A stretch of 64,000 bases of DNA from the human T2T-CHM13v2.0 reference genome, Homo sapiens, in assembly GCF_009914755.1 (NCBI RefSeq), contig NC_060929.1; one strand, given 5' to 3'. The stretch's first letter is position 1. Each line of letters opens with the position of its first letter. A program made the translations under genes and the position numbers. Shown here piece after piece: positions 21,336-51,959 of this stretch. A model generated the notes under the pieces. It did no database searches. It was not told where the DNA came from and worked only from the letters and a program-made list of their open reading frames with translations.

Positions 21336-22356
<1,021 letters not shown>

Positions 22357-23371
22357 TAGTAGAGATGGGGTTTCTCCATGTTGGTCAGGCTGGTCTCGGA
22401 CTCCCAACCTCAGGTGATCCACCCACCTCAGCCTCCCAAAGTGCTGGGATTACAGGTGTGAGCCACCGCGCCCGGCAGTTGAGCTTATTTTCATATTTTC
22501 CTGCAGAATAGTCTTGTTCTTTCTCTTCAAGAGTGTGTCTTAGCTATTTTTTTGCCCTTTGGTCTTTCATATTCCAGAGAATATATTAAATATCCCAAGC
22601 AGGCATGGTGGTTCACACCTATAATCCCAGCACTTTGGGAGGCTGAGGTGGGAGGAGTGCACAAGGCGAGGAGTTTGAGACTAGCCTTTGCAACATAGCT
22701 AGACTCCATTTCTACAAAAAATTTTTAAAACAAACAGGGTGTGGTAGCATGCATCTGTAGTCCCAGCTACCTGGGAGGCAGAGGCAGGAGAATCGCTTGA
22801 GCTCAGGAGTATAGGTTGCAATGAGCTATGATTGTGCCACTGTACTGTGGCCTGGGTGACAGAGTAAAACTTTGTCTCTAAAAAACAGAAATATCCCTCT
22901 TTATCCTTGATAGTATTTTTTAGGCCTTTATTAGTTTTTTCATGTTACATCTTTTAGATTATTTTCTTTTTAATCTATCTGTGACTATATTTAAAGTCAA
23001 TTCTTGTTTTTTCCTTTTCCTTTTTGTGGGTAACGGGGTCTCACTATGTTGCCCAGGCAGATCTCAAACTCCTGGGCTCAAGCTGTCCTCCCACCTCTGC
23101 CACCCTAAGTGTTGAGATTACAGGCATGAGCCACTGCACCCAGCCTTAAAGTGAATTGTTATAGGCAACAACACAGTGGGGTCTTTTATTTTATTTTTTA
23201 TTTGTTTATGAGACAGACTCGCTCTGTTGCCTACGCTGCAGTGCAGTGGTGCAGTCTTGACTCACTGCAGCCTGGACTTCCCAGGCTCAAGCAATCCTCC
23301 CACCTCAGACTCCTGAGTAGCTGGGACTACAGGCACATGCCACCATGCCAGGCTAATTTTTTTTTTCTGGG

Positions 23372-24770
23372 CCTAGAGATCTGTGGAACTTTGAACTTGA
23401 GAGAGATGATTTAAGGTATCTGACAGAAGAAATTTCTAAGCAGCAAAGCATTCGAGAAGAAGCAGAGCATAAAATTTCAGAAAATTTGTAGCCTGATGAT
23501 GCAACAGAAAAGAAAAATCTATTTTCTCAGGAGACTGGGTTGTAGAAATTTGCATAAGTAATGAGGAGCCAAATGTTAATCACCAAGACAATGGGGCAAA
23601 TGTCTCCAGGGCATGTTAGAGACCCTCACAGCAGACCCTCCCATCGCAGGCCAGGAGGCTTAGAAGGAAAAATGGTTTTGTGGGTCCAGAACCCCCTGCT
23701 GTGTGCAGCCTAGGAACTTGGGGCCCTGCATCCCAGCTGCTCCTGCCATAGGTAAAAGGGGACAAGGTACACCTCAGGCCATGGCTTCAGAGGGTGCAAG
23801 TTCCAAGCCTTTCAGGTTCTAGGTGGTGTTAAGCCTGCAGATGCACCGAAGTCAAGAATTAACGTTCATGAACCTCCGCCTACATTTCAGAAGATGTATG
23901 AAAATGCCTGGAAATCCAGGCAAAAGTTTGCTGTGGGGGGGAGGGGAGGGGGGGGCCCTCATGGATAACCTCTGCTAGGGCAGTGTCAAAGGGAAATATG
24001 GGGTTGGAGCTCCCACACAGAGTCCCCACTGGGGTACTGCCAAGCAGAGCTGTGAGAAAAGGGCCACCATCCTCCAGACCCCAGAATGGTAGATCCACTG
24101 ACAGCTTGCACTGTGTGCCTAGAAAAGCTGCAGACACTCAATGCAGCCAGAAGGGGGGCTGTACCCTGCAAAGCCACAGGGGCGGGGCTGCCCAAGACCC
24201 TGGGAACCCACTTCTTGCATCACCTAGATGTGACACATGGAGTCAAAGGAGGTCATTTTGGAGCTTTAAGATTTGCCTGCTGGGTTTTGGACTTGCATGG
24301 GGCCTGTAGCTCTTTCGCTTTGGCCAATTTCTCCCATTTGAAACGAGTGTATCTACCCAATGCCTGTATCCCTGTGTATCTAGAAAATAACTAACTTGCT
24401 TTTGATTTTACAGGCTCATAGGTGGAAGGGACTTGCCTTGTCTCAGATGAGACTTTGGACTATGGAATTTTGAGTTAATGCTGAAATAAGAGTTTGGGGG
24501 ACTTAGGGGAAGGCACGATTGCTTTTGAAATATGAGGACATGAGATTTGGGAGGGGCCGGGGAAGAATTATATGGTTTGGCTCTGTCCGCACCCAAATCT
24601 CATCTTGAATTGTAACAATTCCCATGTGTCAAGGGTGGGGCCAGGTGGAGATAACTGAATCATGGAGGCAGTTTCCCCCATGCTGTTCTCATGGTAGTGA
24701 ATAAGTCTCATGAGGTCTGATGGTTTTATAAATGGATGTTCCCCTGCACATGCTCTCTCCTGCCCACCAT
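23372..24770 (+). mobile_element. 5'-truncated THE1 (MaLR) internal region plus truncated 3' LTR (from 24568)
   Basis: cctagagatctgtggaactttgaacttgagagagatgat (MaLR-int); polypurine tract gggaggggccggggaagaa followed by LTR start ttatatggtttggct. Confidence 0.9.
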
Positions 24771-25863
24771 GTCTGACTAAATTTTGTATTTTTACTAGAG
24801 ACGGGCTTTCACTATGTTGGCCAGGCTGGCCTCCAACTCCTGATCTCGTGATCCGTCCACCCCGACCTCCCAAAGTGCTAGGATCATAGGCATAAGCCAC
24901 CACACCCGGCCTCTTTTTTTTCTTTTTCTTTTTTTTATCTGGAGACTGAGTTTTGCACTCGTTGCCCAGGCTGGAGTGCAATGGTGCGATCTCAGCTCAC
25001 TGCAGTCTCCACCTCAGCAGGAGAGCAGGAATCTTCAGTGATCCACGGGCAAATATGCAGCCATTGTGGGCACCTGTTCCTCCCGCGACCTTTGTGCCCA
25101 CGTCTCTCCCTCCAGTACCTACTGCACGACCCCCCACGTCCGCCTCCTGCCATTGCCAGCAGGTGCCTTGCGCCGGTACCTGGCTGCGCTTATTCATCCA
25201 TTATGGTCGCTCTGTCACTGGTGCCATTATGTGCTCACATGCCCACTCCCTCAGGTTTAGAAGTCGCGTTGCCCGGCAACAGAACAATCTGCTGGCTTAG
25301 CCTTTGGCCAAGTTGGCAGCTGGACGAGGACGCTCAGAGCCCAGCTCTTGAGAGTTCAAGTATCCGACAGTTCCCCACTGCTCCCAGGAGCGGTTACCCG
25401 GGCACTCTGTGCCCCTCATTCCTGTTTGGGCCAAGGCCGAGGACCTGCGAGTAGGGCTCAGTTGCCTGGAGCCCCTTCAGCCCATCCCCCAGTTCACTTT
25501 GCTTGTGGGATCTCCCCGTTGCTCCTGCCCCTGGACTGAGTGGCAGGCCATCCTACAAACACCCGCACACTCGACATCAGTGGTGTCAAGACAACTCTAA
25601 GAAGGTTTTCCGTGATCCTGCAAGACCTGTGTTCCATCCTGGTGATTCTGTCTTCAACTTCACTGCACAGGTACCACAGTAAGCCAGTGCTGTGTGCTCT
25701 GAGTTCCAGGGCATCCCCCAGCTCAGCCACTACACTGAGCACAAGGACTCTGTGGGGCCCAGGAGCAGGTAGTCACCCCTTTGGGGTCCACAACACCCGG
25801 CTGTCCCCAGACTTGTGTCCAGGGAAGATAGTGTTGAGGGCCCTCAAGGAGAGCGGGGCAGGG

Positions 25864-28800
25864 ATGCCTGAGCAGCACAAGGACCCCAGAGTCCAAGAAA
25901 ATCCTGATGATCAGAGAACGGTCCCCGAGGTCACCGGGGATGCACGGTCTGCATTTTGGCCCCTGCGGGACAATGGAGGCCCCTCTCCCTTTGTGCCCAG
26001 GCCCGGGCCTCTGCAGACAGACCTCCACGCCCAGAGCTCAGAAATCAGATATAACCACACATCCCAGACATCCTGGACGAGCTCGAGCACCAAACGAAAT
26101 GCCATCTCCAGCTCCTACAGCTCCACGGGAGGCTTGCCGGGGCTAAAGCAGAGGAGGGGGCCAGCCTCATCCCGCTGCCAGCTGACCCTCAGTTACTCAA
26201 AGACAGTGAGTGAGGACAGGCCTCAGGCTGTCTCTTCGGGTCACACACGGTGTGAAAAGGGGGCAGATACATCACCAGGGCAGACAATCGCCCCAACGGG
26301 TGGCTCCCCCAGATCCCAGGACTCTAGGCCCCGTAGACGCAAGATTCCCCTGCTGCCACGCAGGCGAGGGGAGCCTTTGATGCTGCCACCTCCCTTAGAG
26401 CTGGGGTACCGGGTCACGGCTGAAGACCTGCACCTGGAAAAAGAGAAGGCATTCCAGCGCATCAACAGTGCACTGCACGTTGAGGACAAGGCCATCTCGG
26501 ACTGCAGACCCTCACGGCCTTCCCACACTTTGTCCTCACTTGCAACAGGGGCTTCGGGTGGGCCTCCCGTTTCTAAAGCACCCACTATGGATGCACAGCA
26601 GGACAGACCCAAGTCCCAAGACTGCCTGGGCCTACTGGCCCCCCTAGCATCTGCAGCAGAGGTCCCCGCTACAGCTCCCGTGTCTGGGAAGAAGCACAGA
26701 CCACCAGGACCCCTGTTCTCCTCCTCAGATCCCCTTCCGGCCAACTCTTCCCACTCCCGGGACTCAGCCCAGGTCACCTCGATGATTCCTGTCCCCTTGA
26801 CAGCTGCAAGCAGGGATGCCGGCATGAGAAGAACAAGGTCGGCTCCTGCAGCTGCCGCAGCAGCCCCTCCCCCCTCCACATTGAACCCCACGTCGGGGTC
26901 ACTACTCAATGCAGTGGATGGAGGCCCCTCACATTTCTTGGCCTCAGCCACAGCTGCAGCACGTGTCCAGAGGTCAGAAGTGAGATATAACCAGAGATCC
27001 CAGACCTCCCGGACCAGATCGTGCCTCAAACGAAATGCCAGCTCCAGCTCCCACAGCTCTACGGAAGGCCTCCAGGAAGTAAAGCGGAGGAGGGGGCCAG
27101 CCTCATCCCACTGCCAGCTGGCCCACAGTTCCTCAAACACAGTGAGTGAGGATGGACCTCAGGCTGTCTCTTCGGGTCACCGCTGTGAAAACAAGGCAGG
27201 TACAGCACCAGGGCAGACACTTGCCCCCAGGGGTGGCTCCCCCAGATCCCAGGCCTCTAGGCCCCACATCAACACTGCACTGCACGTTGAGGACAAGGCC
27301 ATCTCGGACTGCAGACCCTCACGACCTTCCCACACTTTGTCCTCACTTGCAACAGAGGCTTCGGGTGGGCCTCCCGTTTCTAAAGCACCCACTATGGACG
27401 CACAGCAGGACAGACCCAAGTCCCAAGACTGCCTGGGCCTAGTGGCCCCCCTAGCATCTGCAGCAGAGGTCCCCTCTACAGCTCCCGTGTCTGGGAAGAA
27501 GCACAGACCACCAGGACCCCTGTTCTCCTCCTCAGATCCCCTTCCTGCCACCTCTTACCACTCCCGGGACTCAGCCCAGGTCACCTCGCTGATTCCTGCC
27601 ACCTTCACAGCTGCAAGCAGGGATGCCGGCATGAGAAGAACAAGGTCGGCTCCTGCAGCTGCCACAGCAGCCCCTCCCCCCTCCACATTGAACAACACGT
27701 CGGGGTCACTACTCAATGCAGTGGATGGAGGCCCCTCACATTTCTTGGCCTCAGCCACAGCTGCAGCACGTGCCCAGAGGTCAGAAGTGAGATATAACCA
27801 GAGATCCCAGACCTCCCGGACCAGATCCTGCCTCAAACGAAATGCCAGCTCCAGCTCCAGCTCCCACAGCTCTACGGAAGGCCTCCAGGAACTAAAGCGG
27901 AGGAGGGGGCCAGCCTCATCCCACTGCCAGCTGGCCCACAGTTCCCCAAACACAGTGAGTGAGGACGGACCTCAGGCTGTCTCTTCGGGTCACCGCTGTG
28001 AAAACAAGGCAGGTACAGCACCAGGGCAGACACTCGCCCCCAGGGGAGGCTCCCCCAGATCCCAGGCCTCTAGGCCCCACATCAACAGTGCACTGCACGT
28101 TGAGGACAAGGCCATCTCGGACTGCAGACCCTCACGGCCTTCCCACACTTTGTCCTCACTTGCAACAGGGGCTTCGGGTGGGCCTCCCGTTTCTAAAGCA
28201 CCCACTATGGACGCACAGCAGGACAGACCCAAGTCCCAAGACTGCCTGGGCCTAGTGGCCCCCCTAGCATCTGCTGCAGAGGTCCCCTCTACAGCTCCCG
28301 TGTCTGGGAAGAAGCACAGACCACCAGGACCCCTGTTCTCCTCCTCAGATCCCCTTCCTGCCACCTCTTCCCACTCCCGGGACTCAGCCCAGGTCACCTC
28401 GCTGATTCCTGCCACCTTCACAGCTGCAAGCAGGGATGCCGGCATGAGAAGAACAAGGCCTGGCACCTCGGCTCCTGCAGCTGCCGCAGCAGCCCTTCCC
28501 CCCTCCACATTGAACCCCACGTCGGGGTCGCTACTCAATGCAGTGGATGGAGGCCCCTCACATTTCTTGGCCTCAGCCACAGCTGCAGCACGTGCCCAGA
28601 GGTCAGAAGTGAGATATAACCAGAGATCCCAGACCTCCCGGACCAGATCCTGCCTCAAACGAAATGCCAGCTCCAGCTCCCACAGCTCTACGGAAGGCCT
28701 CCAGGAAGTAAAGCGGAGGAGGGGGCCAGCCTCATCCCACTGCCAGCTGGCCCACAGTTCCTCAAACACAGTGAGTGAGGACGGACCTCAGGCTGTCTCT

Positions 28801-30183
28801 TCGGGTCACCGCTGTGAAAACAAGGCAGGTACAGCACCAGGGCAGACACTCGCCCCCAGGGGTGGCTCCCCCAGATCCCAGGCCTCTAGGCCCCGCATCA
28901 ACAGTGCACTGCACGTTGAGGACAAGGCCATCTCGGACTGCAGACCCTCACGGCCTTCCCACACTTTGTCCTCACTTGCAACAGGGGCTTCGGGTGGGCC
29001 TCCCGTTTCTAAAGCACCCACTATGGATGCACAGCAGCACAGACCCAAGTCCCAAGACTGCCTGGGCCTACTGGCCCCCCTAGCATCTGCTGCAGAGGTC
29101 CCCTCTACAGCTCCCGTGTCTGGGAAGAAGCACAGACCACCAGGACCCCTGTTCTCCTCCTCAGATCCCCTTCCTGCCACCTCTTCCCACTCACGGGACT
29201 CAGCCCAGGTCACCTCGCTGATTCCCGCGCCCTTCACAGCTGCAAGCAGCGATGCCGGCATGAGAAGAACAAGGCCTGGCACCTCGGCTCCTGCAGCTGC
29301 AGCAGCAGCCCCTCCCCCCTCCACATTGAACCCCACGTCGGGGTCACTACTCAATGCAGTGGATGGAGGCCCCTCACATTTCTTGGCCTCAGCCACAGCT
29401 GCAGCACGTGTCCAGAGGTCAGAAGTGAGATATAACCAGAGATCCCAGACCTCCCGGACCAGATCCTGCCTCCAAGGAAATGCCAGCTCCAGCTCCCACA
29501 GCTCTACGGAAGGCCTCCCGCAACTAAAGCGGAGGAGGGGGCCAGCCTCATCCCACTGCCAGCTGGCCCACAGTTCCTCAAACACAGTGAGTGAGGACGG
29601 ACCTCAGGCTGTCTCTTCGGGTCACACCCGCTGTGAGAAGAAGGCAGGTACAGCACCAGGGCAGACACTTGCCCCCAGGGGTGGCTCCCCCAGATCCCAG
29701 GCCTCTAGGCCCCGCATCAACACTGCACTGCACATTGAGGACAAGGCCATCTCGGACTGCAGACCCTCACGGCCTTCCCACACTTTGTCCTCACTTGCAA
29801 CAGGGGCTTCGGGTGGGCCTCCCGTTTCTAAAGCACCCACTATGGATGCACAGCAGGACAGACCCAAGTCCCAAGACTGCCTGGGCCTAGTGGCCCCCCT
29901 AGCATCTGCTGCAGAGGTCTCCTCTACAGCTCCCATGTCTGGGAAGAAGCACAGACCACCAGGACCCCTGTTCTCCTCCTCAGATCCCCTTCCTGCCACC
30001 TCTTCCCACTCCGGGGACTCAGCCCAGGACACCTCGCTGATTCCTGCCCCCTTCACACCTGCAAGCAGGGATGCCGGCATCAGAAGAATGTTTCGTGTTC
30101 GAAATTGTTTGAGGGGTTTGGGTTTATTTTTGTTGGTTTTTTCTTTTTTTTTTTTGCTTACGTGGGCATCCTTCAGCTTTTAA
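25864..30183 (+). CDS. Intronless POM121-like (POM121L1-family) ORF, 1439 aa from first ATG (frame open from 25540); Ser/Pro/Ala-rich, 4 internal repeats, hydrophobic C-terminus; coding status unproven
   Basis: POM121 central-region motifs: SAFWPLRDNGGPSPFVPRPGPL, RNAISSSYSSTGG, RRKIPLLPRRRGEPLMLPPPLELGYRVTAEDLHLEK; upstream in-frame SPDLCPGKIVLRALKE resembles POM121 APDPCAKETVLSALKE. ATG context gggATGc; no N-terminal TM or FG repeats. Confidence 0.7.
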   Translation: MPEQHKDPRVQENPDDQRTVPEVTGDARSAFWPLRDNGGPSPFVPRPGPLQTDLHAQSSEIRYNHTSQTSWTSSSTKRNAISSSYSSTGGLPGLKQRRGPASSRCQLTLSYSKTVSEDRPQAVSSGHTRCEKGADTSPGQTIAPTGGSPRSQDSRPRRRKIPLLPRRRGEPLMLPPPLELGYRVTAEDLHLEKEKAFQRINSALHVEDKAISDCRPSRPSHTLSSLATGASGGPPVSKAPTMDAQQDRPKSQDCLGLLAPLASAAEVPATAPVSGKKHRPPGPLFSSSDPLPANSSHSRDSAQVTSMIPVPLTAASRDAGMRRTRSAPAAAAAAPPPSTLNPTSGSLLNAVDGGPSHFLASATAAARVQRSEVRYNQRSQTSRTRSCLKRNASSSSHSSTEGLQEVKRRRGPASSHCQLAHSSSNTVSEDGPQAVSSGHRCENKAGTAPGQTLAPRGGSPRSQASRPHINTALHVEDKAISDCRPSRPSHTLSSLATEASGGPPVSKAPTMDAQQDRPKSQDCLGLVAPLASAAEVPSTAPVSGKKHRPPGPLFSSSDPLPATSYHSRDSAQVTSLIPATFTAASRDAGMRRTRSAPAAATAAPPPSTLNNTSGSLLNAVDGGPSHFLASATAAARAQRSEVRYNQRSQTSRTRSCLKRNASSSSSSHSSTEGLQELKRRRGPASSHCQLAHSSPNTVSEDGPQAVSSGHRCENKAGTAPGQTLAPRGGSPRSQASRPHINSALHVEDKAISDCRPSRPSHTLSSLATGASGGPPVSKAPTMDAQQDRPKSQDCLGLVAPLASAAEVPSTAPVSGKKHRPPGPLFSSSDPLPATSSHSRDSAQVTSLIPATFTAASRDAGMRRTRPGTSAPAAAAAALPPSTLNPTSGSLLNAVDGGPSHFLASATAAARAQRSEVRYNQRSQTSRTRSCLKRNASSSSHSSTEGLQEVKRRRGPASSHCQLAHSSSNTVSEDGPQAVSSGHRCENKAGTAPGQTLAPRGGSPRSQASRPRINSALHVEDKAISDCRPSRPSHTLSSLATGASGGPPVSKAPTMDAQQHRPKSQDCLGLLAPLASAAEVPSTAPVSGKKHRPPGPLFSSSDPLPATSSHSRDSAQVTSLIPAPFTAASSDAGMRRTRPGTSAPAAAAAAPPPSTLNPTSGSLLNAVDGGPSHFLASATAAARVQRSEVRYNQRSQTSRTRSCLQGNASSSSHSSTEGLPQLKRRRGPASSHCQLAHSSSNTVSEDGPQAVSSGHTRCEKKAGTAPGQTLAPRGGSPRSQASRPRINTALHIEDKAISDCRPSRPSHTLSSLATGASGGPPVSKAPTMDAQQDRPKSQDCLGLVAPLASAAEVSSTAPMSGKKHRPPGPLFSSSDPLPATSSHSGDSAQDTSLIPAPFTPASRDAGIRRMFRVRNCLRGLGLFLLVFSFFFLLTWASFSF
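26461..30088 (+). repeat. Tandem array: units of 807, 813, 816 and 819 bp plus a partial fifth unit
   Basis: atcaaca(g/c)tgcactgcac recurs at 26461, 27268, 28081, 28897 and 29716. Confidence 0.97.
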
Positions 30184-30247
30184 TAATCTGAAAAATTGTA
30201 TTTACCCATTGTCAATGTGTATAAATTAATCTCAGTCAATTTTATAC

Positions 30248-30253
30248 AATAAA
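30248..30253 (+). terminator. Candidate polyadenylation signal AATAAA for POM121-like copy 1
   Basis: AATAAA 65 nt after the TAA stop; AT-rich context makes chance occurrence possible. Confidence 0.4.
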
Positions 30254-31275
30254 AGGTGAACTTTTATCCATCAAACAATAATTTAACAAAAAATGTACCG
30301 GAAGAAGAATGTTCATTACAAATATAGGAAACATAAATATTACCAAATATTGGCAAGCACTAAAATGTTCAGAAATATAAGTCTATTACAGTTATAGCTC
30401 TCTCAAGCAAAAAAACAGCAGAGAAAAACTTAGTTTTCCTGAGGGGCTATTTATTTACTTAGGGATTTGTTAAAAGGTCAAATGGGGTCACACAGAATAC
30501 TAAGAAGAGCTGTTCACTCAGGCCTCACTAAGAACTCTTCTTCATGCAGTAGCTATATAGGAATATGACAACTGCTCCTACGACCCAAAGAGGAACTACA
30601 GCAACTACTCTTTAGCATCTGTTGCTCCCAACTCTGCTTTGCAATTATATGACTCAAGCATTCTGGCTCCGTTAACTATTACTGCTGTTACTCCCAAGTA
30701 AATTCCCTCTAAAAAATAAAAAATTTTCAAGCTGTAATTTAAGCTCTCTGCTGCCTCATGACTTCAATTCCATCAGAGTTACGCATTGTTTCCTCTGTAC
30801 ATCTTTGCTCTGCTTCCATTGCTAATTCCCTAGTAAAGTGTTGTATATTCAAAGTTCCAAAGAAACAGAATATCCAAGACATCACCAATCATCCAAAACA
30901 CAGTGTAGGAGGCCACAGTTAAGAGAAGCAAGACCATTAGCTCTTTTTATAGGCTCGAGAACAACAGGATGCTTTGGTCCTGTATCAGCAGGACGCTTTT
31001 TGGGTAGATCCTACTGCCACCCTACTATCGGGTAGATCCTACTGTCACCCTAGCTATGGGCACATGTCAGAGTCCCATGTAATAAAGGAGACAAAAGGAA
31101 ACCACCACGAGTATAAACTAAGAAAAGTACTCCAAGGTTTCTAAGAATGGAGCTGTATAACTCACTTTGCCCCGTTTGTTACTTCTCCACGGTACTTACC
31201 ACCACCTATTACATATATTTTGTTTATAGTCAGTCTTCCCCCATTAGAATGAAAGTTCCGTGAGGATAGGACTAT

Positions 31276-31578
31276 ACAGTCAGCCCTCAGTATCCATGGG
31301 GGACTGGTTTCAGGATCTCCTGAGGGTAACAAAGGATACTCAAGTCCCTGATATAAAATGACATAGTATTTGCACATCACCTTTGCACATCCTCCCATAT
31401 ACTTCATATCAACTCTAGATCACTCATAATATCCGATGTAAATGTCATGCAAATAGTTATTGTACTATATTGTGTAAGGAATAAGGACAAGAAAAAAGTC
31501 TGTACATGTTCAGTACAGACGCAATTTTTTTTTCCAATATTTCCAATCCTTGGTTGCCTTAACGGATGTAGAACCCAG
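31276..31578 (+). mobile_element. MER2 (Tigger-derived DNA transposon), followed by an L1MA 3' fragment to ~31820; duplicated at ~49323-49870
   Basis: ta-cagtcagccctcagtatccatgggggactggtttcagga...ctcaagtccctgatataaaatg...aaaaagtctgtacatgttcagtacagacgca matches recalled MER2. Confidence 0.85.
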
Positions 31579-32074
31579 GAATAAGTTCTGGTGTCCTATT
31601 GCATAGTAGGATGAGTATAGTTAACAATAACATATTATATATTTGAAAATAGCCAGAAGAGTAGATTTTGAATTTTCTCCCTACAGAAAAATCATTATGC
31701 AAATTACCCTGATTTGATCATTACACATTGAGTACATGTATTAAAACATCACATTCTACCCCATATATATGTACAGTTATTATGTGTCCATAAAAATTTA
31801 ATGTCAATGTGTGAAATAAAATGAAAAAATAAAAATTTTTAAAGCTGTAATTATCTCCATCTGGTAGGAATATATACAATCTGAAATAAAAAATATATTT
31901 GTAATTGTTAGGACAAAATAGATTATACATTAAGTCTGCAAATTATAAATTATAAAATTCTCACAGAACCTGAAAAATTATTGATACTGTTAAATATTTA
32001 AAAAGCTGTCCTTGGAGAGAAAGAAACCTATCAGATTTACATCAACAAGTGTAATATGTCAGCCTATTACCATC

Positions 32075-33077
<1,003 letters not shown>

Positions 33078-33097: not shown

Positions 33098-33594
<497 letters not shown>

Positions 33595-44668: not shown

Positions 44669-51959
<7,291 letters not shown>

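What the first reader, a model, noticed from the sequence alone, without database searches (positions are those of the whole stretch)
25864..30183. 4.3-kb open POM121-like ORF with a coding tandem array in which every indel keeps frame
Seen: no stop over 4644 bp; units are 807/813/816/819 bp; they differ by a 6-bp (SS), a 9-bp (PGT) and a 3-bp (T) indel, and all lack a 126-bp block (26335-26460) present in the lead-in. All four indels are multiples of 3 although units also differ by many substitutions. Known: POM121L1-type copies are usually annotated as pseudogenes. Inference: this may be a translated, length-variable, disordered protein hidden in a hard-to-assemble region. GC richness and recent expansion could also keep the frame open neutrally.
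Basis: partly seen in the sequence, partly recalled or inferred. Interest (0 to 1): 0.8.

Follow-up and report, generated by a model that had tools for sequence, protein, structure and literature searches.

The report
Open POM121-like repeat gene, already described
This is an intact copy of a known ape-specific gene family derived from the nuclear-pore protein POM121, whose reading frame has been kept open across many chromosome 5 copies even though its amino acids change freely.

Summary
Window 25540-30183 (+) has no stop. From the first ATG (25864) it encodes 1,439 aa: a POM121-family head, four units of 807/813/816/819 bp plus a 373-bp partial unit, and a 31-codon non-POM121 tail ending in a hydrophobic helix.

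It is not new. PMC12679747 (2025) describes these chromosome 5 "POM121L1P-like" repeat ORFs (UniProt A6NNC1), reports peptides from cancer lines and sperm, and says GENCODE v49 annotated nine of them as coding. RefSeq calls this copy a pseudogene but models a near-identical sister copy as a protein.

I added a paralogue test in T2T-CHM13:
- 21 of 21 heads and 57 of 58 units of the closest chr5 copies keep the frame; one unit has a 68-bp deletion.
- No stop arose among 258 substitution events (7.25 expected, P=0.0004).
- ORF indels were 8 in-frame to 1 out, against 3 to 12 in flanks and dead copies (P=0.0017).
- Amino acids look unconstrained: omega is 0.95 in the head and 1.36 in the units.

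The main published peptide (64 observations) is absent from this ORF. It is present in the 354-aa sister ORF at 47166-48230. Translation of this particular copy remains unproven.

The parts
25540..25863 (+). In-frame, stop-free stretch upstream of the ATG; probably 5' UTR rather than coding
   Evidence: A 1-bp insertion sits here in the 5q21 copies, and 1-bp and 2-bp indels sit here in the chr22/chr20 copies, whereas indels downstream of the ATG keep frame. Primate homologues start at MPEQDKDPRV.
25864..30183 (+). Single-exon ORF of 1,439 codons plus TAA
25864..26460 (+). Head of 199 aa holding the full POM121-family domain (PF15229 positions 9-229 of 235) and an RPRRRK basic cluster
26334..26459 (+). 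126-bp (42-aa) block present in the head and absent from every chr5 array unit. It is present in the chr22/chr20 927-930-bp units and in the orangutan 315-aa units.
26461..27267 (+). Unit 1, 807 bp (codon register)
27268..28080 (+). Unit 2, 813 bp (+6 bp CCAGCT)
28081..28896 (+). Unit 3, 816 bp (+9 bp)
28897..29715 (+). Unit 4, 819 bp (+9 and +3 bp)
29716..30088 (+). Partial fifth unit; the POM121-derived sequence ends here
   Evidence: query positions 1-374 match; GC falls from 61% to 35%
30089..30183 (+). 31 codons plus stop from AT/T-rich non-POM121 DNA. Residues 1414-1439 (30103-30180) are the only hydrophobic segment and a putative tail anchor.
   Evidence: Kyte-Doolittle 19-residue mean up to 2.21, found only here. 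The same tail forms a helix at pLDDT 92-96 in the model of the sister ORF. The tail is shared by all 21 close chr5 copies and by Pan and Gorilla proteins.
30248..30253 (+). AATAAA 65 nt after the stop; a possible polyadenylation signal. This is weak evidence because the region is AT-rich.
47166..48230 (+). Second family member in the window: a 354-aa ORF with head, partial unit and tail but no full unit. It carries the 64-observation PeptideAtlas peptide.
47543..48127 (-). RefSeq predicted CDS of LOC124900997. It is a 194-aa antisense ORF nested inside the + strand POM121-like ORF.
   Evidence: together with the hub annotation

Best explanation
[quoted passage not shown] This is an intronless POM121 derivative that travels with the SMA-GUSBP segmental duplications of chromosome 5.

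Shown:
- It encodes a basic, Ser/Ala/Pro-rich protein. The parts shared with the modelled sister ORF are predicted mostly disordered.
- The protein has a POM121-domain head, 4.5 in-frame repeats of about 271 aa (each with a KRRRG basic cluster), and a C-terminal hydrophobic helix taken from flanking DNA.
- Across the chr5 copies the frame and the absence of stops are kept better than neutral expectation, while amino-acid changes accumulate at or above the neutral rate.

Inferred:
- Selection acts on having a long translatable product (its length, composition, repeated short basic motifs and membrane tail), not on residue identity.
- The product is made at low level in germ cells, blood cells or tumours. 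It sits as a tail-anchored protein in the ER or nuclear-envelope membrane, presenting NLS-like motifs.
- Unit number changes by unequal exchange between units. This keeps frame automatically because unit lengths are multiples of 3.
For: - Domain: Pfam POM121 at E 1.4e-77, with the full domain in the head and partial domains in the units. The domain is contiguous here but split over at least 3 pieces at the chr7 POM121 loci.
- Close chr5 copies (SMA x8, 5p14 x6, 5p13 x7): 21 of 21 heads, 57 of 58 units and 21 of 21 tails are open and in register.
- 5q21 copy L042 is open for 1,564 aa.
- Stops: 157 substitution events gave 0 stops against 3.69 expected (P=0.021). Adding 5q21 gives 258 events, 0 stops, 7.25 expected (P=0.0004). 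Counting only alleles absent from this ORF gives P=0.079 and P=0.0016.
- Neutral control: the dead chr6 copy has 3 stop substitutions in 139 differences (2.2%), which matches the null rate.
- Indels: in intact chr5 lineages 8 are in-frame (6, 9, 3, 3, 6, 126, 18, 12 bp) and 1 is out of frame (68 bp). In flanks, upstream of the ATG and in dead copies the ratio is 3 to 12. Fisher P=0.0017.
- Other species: predicted proteins in Pan (898 aa) and Gorilla have the same start, units and tail. Orangutan has five or more 315-aa units in frame, 99-100% alike among four of the five full units (fifth about 88%) and 81-82% identical to human.
- Published record: PeptideAtlas peptides for the family and GENCODE v49 coding status (PMC12679747).
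- RefSeq models sister copy L024 as a protein.
- Hydrophobic tail and helix.
Against: - No residue-level constraint. ML omega is 0.95 for the head and 1.36 for the units, with an LRT against 1 of P=0.052.
- Columns conserved in Old World monkeys, New World monkeys and non-primates vary as often as other columns: 6 of 66 against 14 of 133.
- Broken copies exist. These are one 5p13 unit (68-bp deletion), chr6, chr22 and chr20, plus a stop in the tail of L040.
- If chr6 and the L040 stop are counted, the deficit of stops is only 4 observed against about 10.4 expected (P=0.023).
- Choosing which lineages count as 'intact' is partly post hoc.
- Many copies are near-identical recent duplicates, so independent events are few.
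- The 64-observation peptide does not map to this ORF.
- The paper's authors found no conservation support and saw most peptides in cancer lines.
- Ape proteins are gene-model predictions, not DNA that I could check.
- I examined no RNA or ribosome data.
- Membrane insertion and NLS function are inference only.
Confidence: 0.6

Rival explanations
1. It is a young, neutrally drifting pseudogene copy. The frame is open because the copies are recent, GC-rich and derived from a real coding sequence. Unequal exchange between in-frame units cannot break the frame. The few small in-frame indels and the lack of stops are luck plus ascertainment. The peptides come from aberrant translation in tumour cells.
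For: - Omega is about 1 or higher, and family-conserved positions show no constraint.
- The ORF diverges at least as fast as its flanks: 2.9% against 1.5-2.3%.
- Within the SMA region the copies differ by less than 1%.
- Restricting to the closest copies and to alleles not in this ORF gives only P=0.079.
- Broken relatives exist.
- The paper judges the family 'unplaced', without conservation, and mostly seen in cancer experiments.
Against: - There are 0 stops in 258 events against 7.25 expected.
- ORF indels run 8 to 1 in-frame against 3 to 12 in controls. Only one of the eight (the CCAGCT hexamer) is a simple 3n-period slip.
- Frameshifts are tolerated just upstream of the ATG but not downstream.
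- Orangutan, chimpanzee and gorilla models also have open multi-unit ORFs.
- Some peptides were seen in sperm.
Confidence: 0.3
2. The element matters as DNA or RNA, for example as an enhancer cluster or as part of a non-coding transcript of the SMA-GUSBP duplicon, and the ORF is incidental.
For: - RefSeq lists three 'enhancer' elements tiling 26853-28851 (hub annotation; I did not check them).
- A predicted minus-strand transcript overlaps the sister copy (hub annotation).
- Array probes named LOC728488 report RNA in neutrophils (PMC2701925, passage seen).
Against: - An enhancer or lncRNA role predicts no preference for 3n indels or against stops in one frame.
- There is no Rfam match in 22000-33000.
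- Peptides exist for the family.
Confidence: 0.1

Closest known systems
[quoted passage not shown]
   Same: - Same start (MPEQ.KDPRVQENPDDQR), POM121-domain head, long ~270-aa repeats and chr5 location beside GUSB pseudogenes.
- The A6NNC1 length of 897 aa equals the ORF of paralogue L023.
- The peptide AGTAPGQTLAPR occurs 4 times in this ORF.
   Different: - This copy has 4.5 units (1,439 aa).
- It lacks the main peptide because of an Ala to Ser change.
- RefSeq labels it a pseudogene (LOC728488).
- I could not tell whether it is one of GENCODE's nine, because those are given on GRCh38.
POM121 / POM121C nucleoporin (chr7)
   Same: Shares the PF15229 region. By recall, this region holds the POM121 NLSs and nucleoporin-binding parts.
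   Different: - No N-terminal membrane segment and no FG repeats (0 FG).
- The domain is contiguous here instead of split over exons.
- It has a coding tandem array and a C-terminal hydrophobic tail.
POM121L2 and POM121L12 (one- or two-exon, male-reproductive-organ-enriched paralogues)
   Same: PF15229 near the N-terminus and few exons. The chr6:27.18 Mb match has a 1,140-aa open frame; its identification as POM121L2 is from recall.
   Different: - Only 38% identity and no tandem array.
- The mouse knockouts are fertile (PMC13253961, passages seen). That says little about this primate-specific branch.
Core-duplicon gene families of ape segmental duplications (NPIP, NBPF/Olduvai, RGPD from nucleoporin RANBP2; SMA-GUSBP on chr5), reviewed in PMC6920530
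   Same: - Expansion along one chromosome inside segmental duplications.
- Omega at or above 1.
- Coding repeats that vary in number.
- It physically rides with the SMA-GUSBP core.
   Different: - That review does not mention the POM121-like ORF and lists no selection signal for SMA-GUSBP (search listing shows 0 occurrences of POM121).
- Positive selection is not established here (P=0.052).

Membership tests
POM121 family (Pfam PF15229) | Match above the curated gathering score | tested here: met
   261 bits against a cut-off of 27, E 1.4e-77, 5 stretches. The head alone scores 181 bits over profile positions 9-229.
POM121 nucleoporin proper | N-terminal transmembrane segment | tested here: not met
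   The only 19-residue window with Kyte-Doolittle mean above 1.6 lies at aa 1414-1439.
POM121 nucleoporin proper | C-terminal FG-repeat region | tested here: not met
   0 FG dipeptides in 1,439 aa.
POM121L1-like / A6NNC1 family (PMC12679747) | POM121-derived head followed by several long repeats, on chr5 beside GUSB pseudogenes | tested here: met
   the hub annotation (GUSBP3 starts at 33249 on the minus strand), and the paper's description.
POM121L1-like / A6NNC1 family (PMC12679747) | Carries the published discriminating peptides | tested here: inconclusive
   1 of 2 is present. AGTAPGQTLAPR occurs 4 times and GADTAPGQTIAPTGGSPR 0 times.
Protein-coding gene under purifying selection | dN/dS clearly below 1 | tested here: not met
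   Omega is 0.95 for the head and 1.36 for the units. The site-based ratio is 1.12-1.23. Conserved columns are not spared.
Protein-coding gene under purifying selection | Frame and stop-freeness kept among diverged copies beyond neutral expectation | tested here: met
   (P=0.0004 to 0.02 for stops; P=0.0017 for indels). The signal is weaker if dead lineages are pooled (P=0.023).
Protein-coding gene under purifying selection | Copy-specific transcript, ribosome or peptide evidence | not testable with these tools
   No RNA, Ribo-seq or MS data are on hand. 7 of 38 tryptic peptides are unique to this copy and could be searched for.
Tail-anchored membrane protein | Single hydrophobic helix of about 20 residues at the extreme C-terminus and none elsewhere | tested here: met
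   (helix 320-353 of the 354-aa sister ORF, pLDDT 92-96).
Tail-anchored membrane protein | Post-translational membrane insertion | not testable with these tools
   Needs cell biology.
Neutrally decaying pseudogene | Stops and frameshifts at the neutral rate | tested here: not met
   Not met for the chr5 copies. Met for the chr6, chr22 and chr20 copies.
Core-duplicon gene family with positive selection | dN/dS significantly above 1 | tested here: inconclusive
   Units give omega 1.36, 2dlnL 3.76, P=0.052.

The most novel reading that the evidence does not exclude
The real protein cargo of the chromosome 5 'SMA-GUSBP' core duplicon may be this POM121-derived gene rather than the GUSB fragment. 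On this reading it is a tail-anchored, NLS-studded, disordered protein. Its repeat number and sequence diversify quickly (omega above 1) while selection keeps it translatable. That pattern would fit an arms-race or germline-conflict factor acting at the nuclear envelope, parallel to the RANBP2-derived RGPD family.
Probability: 0.15. Interest if true: 0.7.

Novelty: already known. Interest (0 to 1): 0.4.

Why it matters
The family sits in the medically important and hard-to-assemble SMA region and in two 20-kb arrays on 5p, so its copy number varies with those rearrangements.

Annotation is inconsistent. RefSeq calls this copy a pseudogene, models a 98%-alike sister as a protein, and predicts an antisense ORF as the CDS in the second copy in the window.

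The paralogue test adds an argument the published account lacked. The frame is protected even though residues are not. That pattern is typical of fast-evolving ape duplicon genes. It also yields copy-specific peptides that would let proteomics assign translation to individual copies.

Tried and rejected
- TRF found nothing because its period limit is 500 bp. The repeat finder was used instead.
- The first substitution test used a nucleotide alignment and included the 324 nt upstream of the ATG. It gave 1 apparent 'stop'. That stop arose from misaligned columns beside the 3-bp indels and occurs in no real sequence. A codon-aware analysis replaced it.
- An earlier hand count of 11:1 indels was wrong. 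It was recounted as 9:1, then as 8:1 after dropping the 324-bp head insertion, which unequal exchange between in-frame homologous segments can produce without selection.
- PDB sequence search found no match at E up to 1.
- Rfam found no family in 22000-33000.
- The upstream 190-aa ORF at 24882-25454 looks partly Alu-derived; that reading is my recognition of the translation plus the hub's repeat mask, not a tool test.
- A test for constraint at family-conserved columns was negative.
- Structure search, complex prediction and the ESM Atlas were not used. The model is mostly disordered and no allowed partner sequence was available.
- I did not compare A6NNC1 full-length, because only part of it was shown and it is not a stored sequence. 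A few short motifs were checked instead.
Full report
**Observation**

Window 25540..30183 (+) is free of stops for 1547 codons. The other five frames of the same stretch hold 16-70 stops. The first in-frame ATG is codon 109, at window 25864, which leaves 1,439 codons plus TAA. Direct-repeat analysis finds five copies in register at 26460, 27267, 28080, 28896 and 29715. They are spaced 807, 813, 816 and 819 bp and are 97-98% alike.

These are a 6-bp CCAGCT duplication, a 9-bp indel, a 3-bp CAC indel, and a 126-bp block (26334-26459) that closes the lead-in and is absent from all units. TRF reported nothing only because its longest period is 500 bp.

**Anatomy**

- The translation matches Pfam POM121 (PF15229) at E 1.4e-77.
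- The 199-aa head covers profile positions 9-229 of 235. Each unit holds only positions 41-146, preceded by about 150 aa of sequence that in the gene lies downstream of the domain. The last 155 aa have no family match.
- POM121-like sequence stops at 30088, where GC falls from 61% to 35%.
- The final 31 codons come from T-rich flanking DNA. They encode the only hydrophobic segment of the protein, aa 1414-1439, with a Kyte-Doolittle 19-residue mean up to 2.21.
- An AATAAA lies 65 nt after the stop. This is weak evidence in AT-rich DNA.
- The protein is Ser 16.7%, Ala 12.5%, Pro 10.5% and Arg 8.6%. It has an RPRRRK cluster in the head, a KRRRG cluster in each unit, and no FG dipeptide.
- I modelled the unit-less sister ORF (354 aa, window 47166-48230) with AlphaFold2 and a 24-sequence alignment. 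Mean pLDDT was 53 and 217 of 354 residues were below 50. There were two confident helices: 186-210, spanning the end of the 42-aa block and the unit start, and 320-353, the hydrophobic tail, at pLDDT 92-96.
- No PDB chain matches by sequence, and there is no Rfam family in 22000-33000.

**Paralogues in the same genome**

The unit has 109 matches in T2T-CHM13. The head finds 35 near-full-length (or longer than half) copies:
- 8 in the SMA region, two of them in this window
- 7 at 5p13, spaced 20.4 kb apart
- 6 at 5p14, spaced 20.3 kb apart
- 2 at 5q21
- 2 on chr6
- 9 on chr22
- 1 on chr20

More distant family members also appear. I fetched 25 loci.

Among the 21 closest chr5 copies, 21 of 21 heads, 57 of 58 full units and 21 of 21 tails are open and end at the same stop. 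Unit lengths are 807, 810, 813, 816 or 819 bp. The exception is one 5p13 unit with a 68-bp deletion. Copies carry 0, 2, 3 or 4 full units, giving 354, 895-897, 1164-1166 and 1437-1439 aa.

The other copies behave as follows:
- 5q21 copy L042 has four 819-bp units and is open for 1,564 aa. L040 has one unit and a stop substitution in its tail.
- The chr6 copy has 3 stop substitutions and 2-bp and 1-bp frameshifts.
- The chr22 and chr20 copies are broken within their 927-930-bp units, which still contain the 126-bp block.

**Test against neutrality**

I counted each variable site once among unique sequences, a minimal event count. I compared outcomes with a null that redistributes the same base changes (with CpG status) over the consensus.

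| Data set | Events | Nonsyn | Syn | Stops observed | Stops expected | P | N/S vs null |
|---|---|---|---|---|---|---|---|
| Closest chr5 copies, ATG to stop | 157 | 117 | 40 | 0 | 3.69 | 0.021 | 1.12 |
| Adding 5q21 | 258 | 196 | 62 | 0 | 7.25 | 0.0004 | 1.23 |
| Alleles absent from this ORF, closest copies | 118 | 92 | 26 | 0 | 2.46 | 0.079 | 1.36 |
| Alleles absent from this ORF, with 5q21 | 221 | 171 | 50 | 0 | 6.21 | 0.0016 | 1.34 |

The dead chr6 copy serves as a control. It has 3 stop-creating changes in 139 differences (2.2%), close to the null rate. If the L040 stop and the chr6 lineage are pooled in, 4 stops are seen against about 10.4 expected (P=0.023). The signal therefore depends partly on which lineages one calls intact.

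Indels:
- In intact chr5 lineages downstream of the ATG, 8 are in-frame (6, 9, 3, 3, 6, 126, 18, 12 bp) and 1 is out of frame (68 bp).
- I left out the 324-bp head insertion of the 5q21 and chr6 copies, because unequal exchange between in-frame homologous segments yields it automatically.
- In the flanks, upstream of the ATG and in the dead copies, 3 of 15 are multiples of 3. The lengths are 1, 2, 28, 1, 1, 1, 1, 2, 3, 2, 1, 3, 1, 2 and 3 bp.
- Fisher P=0.0017.
- Only the CCAGCT insertion is a simple 3n-period slip.
- Frameshifts occur just upstream of the ATG in the 5q21, chr22 and chr20 copies. This marks 25864 as the start.

**No amino-acid constraint**

- ML omega is 0.95 for the head, from 14 unique sequences including chr6 and chr22.
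- ML omega is 1.36 for 36 unique units. The LRT against omega=1 gives 2dlnL 3.76, P=0.052.
- Columns at least 85% conserved in Old World monkeys, New World monkeys and non-primates vary among human copies as often as other columns: 6 of 66 against 14 of 133 in the head.
- The ORF diverges at least as fast as its flanks: 2.9% against 1.5-2.3% between the SMA and 5p copies.
- C<>G transversions are unusually common, 46 of 157 events, and are also common in the flanks. By recall, this fits the mutation spectrum reported for segmental duplications.

**Other species**

- The hydrophobic tail ...LLTWASFSF occurs in human, chimpanzee, bonobo and gorilla entries. Some gorilla and bonobo entries read the T-run in another frame, which is still hydrophobic.
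- A chimpanzee 898-aa protein has the same start, units and tail. It is 93-94% identical to the human 895-897-aa forms.
- Orangutan models have five or more units of 315 aa (273 + 42, so they keep the block). Four of the five full units are 99-100% alike, the fifth is about 88% alike, and all are 81-82% identical to human units. This points to independent homogenisation or expansion with the frame kept.
- These are gene-model proteins. I could not inspect their DNA.

**What is already in print**

PMC12679747 (BMC Genomics 2025; I saw passages and rows of the supplementary tables) says the following:
[quoted passage not shown] - They lie inside GUSB-pseudogene duplications.
- They have no conservation support.
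- Peptides come mostly from cancer lines and some from sperm.
- GENCODE v49 annotated nine chr5 ORFs as coding.

The two listed peptides map as follows in CHM13:
- GADTAPGQTIAPTGGSPR (64 observations) is in 7 of 8 SMA-region copies, including the 354-aa ORF at 47166-48230. It is not in this ORF, which reads GADTSPGQ.
- AGTAPGQTLAPR (2 observations) is in 6 of 8 SMA copies, 4 times here.
- Neither peptide is in the 5p14, 5p13, 5q21, chr6, chr22 or chr20 copies examined.

Other published context:
- The 897-aa length of A6NNC1 equals the ORF of paralogue L023.
- A RefSeq protein on the CHM13 chr5 record ('isoform X2', 1166 aa) aligns 1166/1166 to the ORF of sister copy L024 with one unit skipped. 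RefSeq therefore treats near-identical copies differently.
- The core-duplicon review PMC6920530 (passages seen) describes SMA-GUSBP as the chr5 core, with no selection signal and no functional analysis. It does not mention POM121 (0 occurrences in the listing).
- Array and RNA-seq lists mention LOC728488 and ENSG00000250138 RNA in neutrophils and blood (PMC2701925 and PMC9868882, passages seen). Such probes cannot tell the copies apart.
- Mouse Pom121l2 and Pom121l12 knockouts are fertile (PMC13253961, passages seen).

**Interpretation**

Shown:
- This is an intact member of a known POM121-derived, intronless family. The domain is contiguous here and split over at least three pieces at the chr7 POM121 loci.
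- It has a coding tandem array of variable length, a disordered basic body and a C-terminal hydrophobic helix.
- Its frame is protected but its residues are not.

Inferred:
- Selection acts on a long translatable product.
- The product is tail-anchored in ER or nuclear-envelope membranes.
- The repeated basic clusters act like the NLS-type motifs of POM121. That property of POM121 is recalled, not tested here.

I put 0.6 on the coding-family reading, 0.3 on neutral drift with aberrant translation, and 0.1 on a DNA or RNA role. Translation of this particular copy is unproven.

**Verdict**

Noticed in passing
window 47166-48230 (+) and 47543-48127 (-): RefSeq's predicted protein-coding LOC124900997 uses a 194-aa antisense ORF nested inside a 354-aa + strand POM121-like ORF. 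The + strand ORF carries the 64-observation PeptideAtlas peptide, so the RefSeq CDS is probably on the wrong strand.
   Followed up: partly
window about 25540 and about 46842; G000 chr5 71672167, 71693468 and 71714747: The POM121-like copies in the SMA region recur at about 21.3 kb spacing: two in this window and three at 71.67-71.71 Mb. The last copy of each series is the unit-less 354-aa form.
   Followed up: partly
G000 chr5:21.487-21.591 Mb and chr5:34.312-34.438 Mb (L027-L039): Two large tandem arrays with 20.3-kb and 20.4-kb periods hold 6 and 7 copies. Each copy carries an open 895-1165-aa POM121-like ORF. One 5p13 copy (L038) is broken by a 68-bp deletion.
   Followed up: partly
ORF and 1.5-kb flanks of all chr5 copies: The substitution spectrum is unusual. 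Transitions are only 66 of 157 events and C<>G transversions are 46 of 157. C<>G changes are also frequent in the flanks (6 of 22 and 7 of 33).
   Followed up: partly
window 26241-27158, 27990-28787, 28806-29603 (-): Each unit also keeps a 265-305-aa antisense open frame, conserved in length across paralogues. This is probably a by-product of the GC-rich sense frame.
   Followed up: no
protein P0030: A 299-aa 'hypothetical protein' on an 899-bp contig labelled Stenotrophomonas rhizophila is a POM121-like unit. This is most likely human DNA contaminating a bacterial assembly. Several unnamed 'ena' entries look similar.
   Followed up: no
units of chr22/chr20 copies (L043-L045) compared with chr5/chr6 units, unit positions about 445 and 517: A 4-bp and an 11-bp indel lie 72 nt apart and sum to 15 bp. 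This would be a compensated frameshift between the two branches of the family, or else an alignment split of one 15-bp event.
   Followed up: no
G000 chr2:68.54, chr10:31.39, chr13:76.89, chr8:27.29, chr1:151.20 Mb and several on chr9: Dispersed loci match PF15229 positions 2-213. Five have identical 427-aa open frames on five chromosomes. They look like retrocopies of another family member and were not identified.
   Followed up: no
window 26853-28851: RefSeq lists three abutting 'enhancer' elements tiling units 1-3 of the array. I could not see their experimental basis.
   Followed up: no
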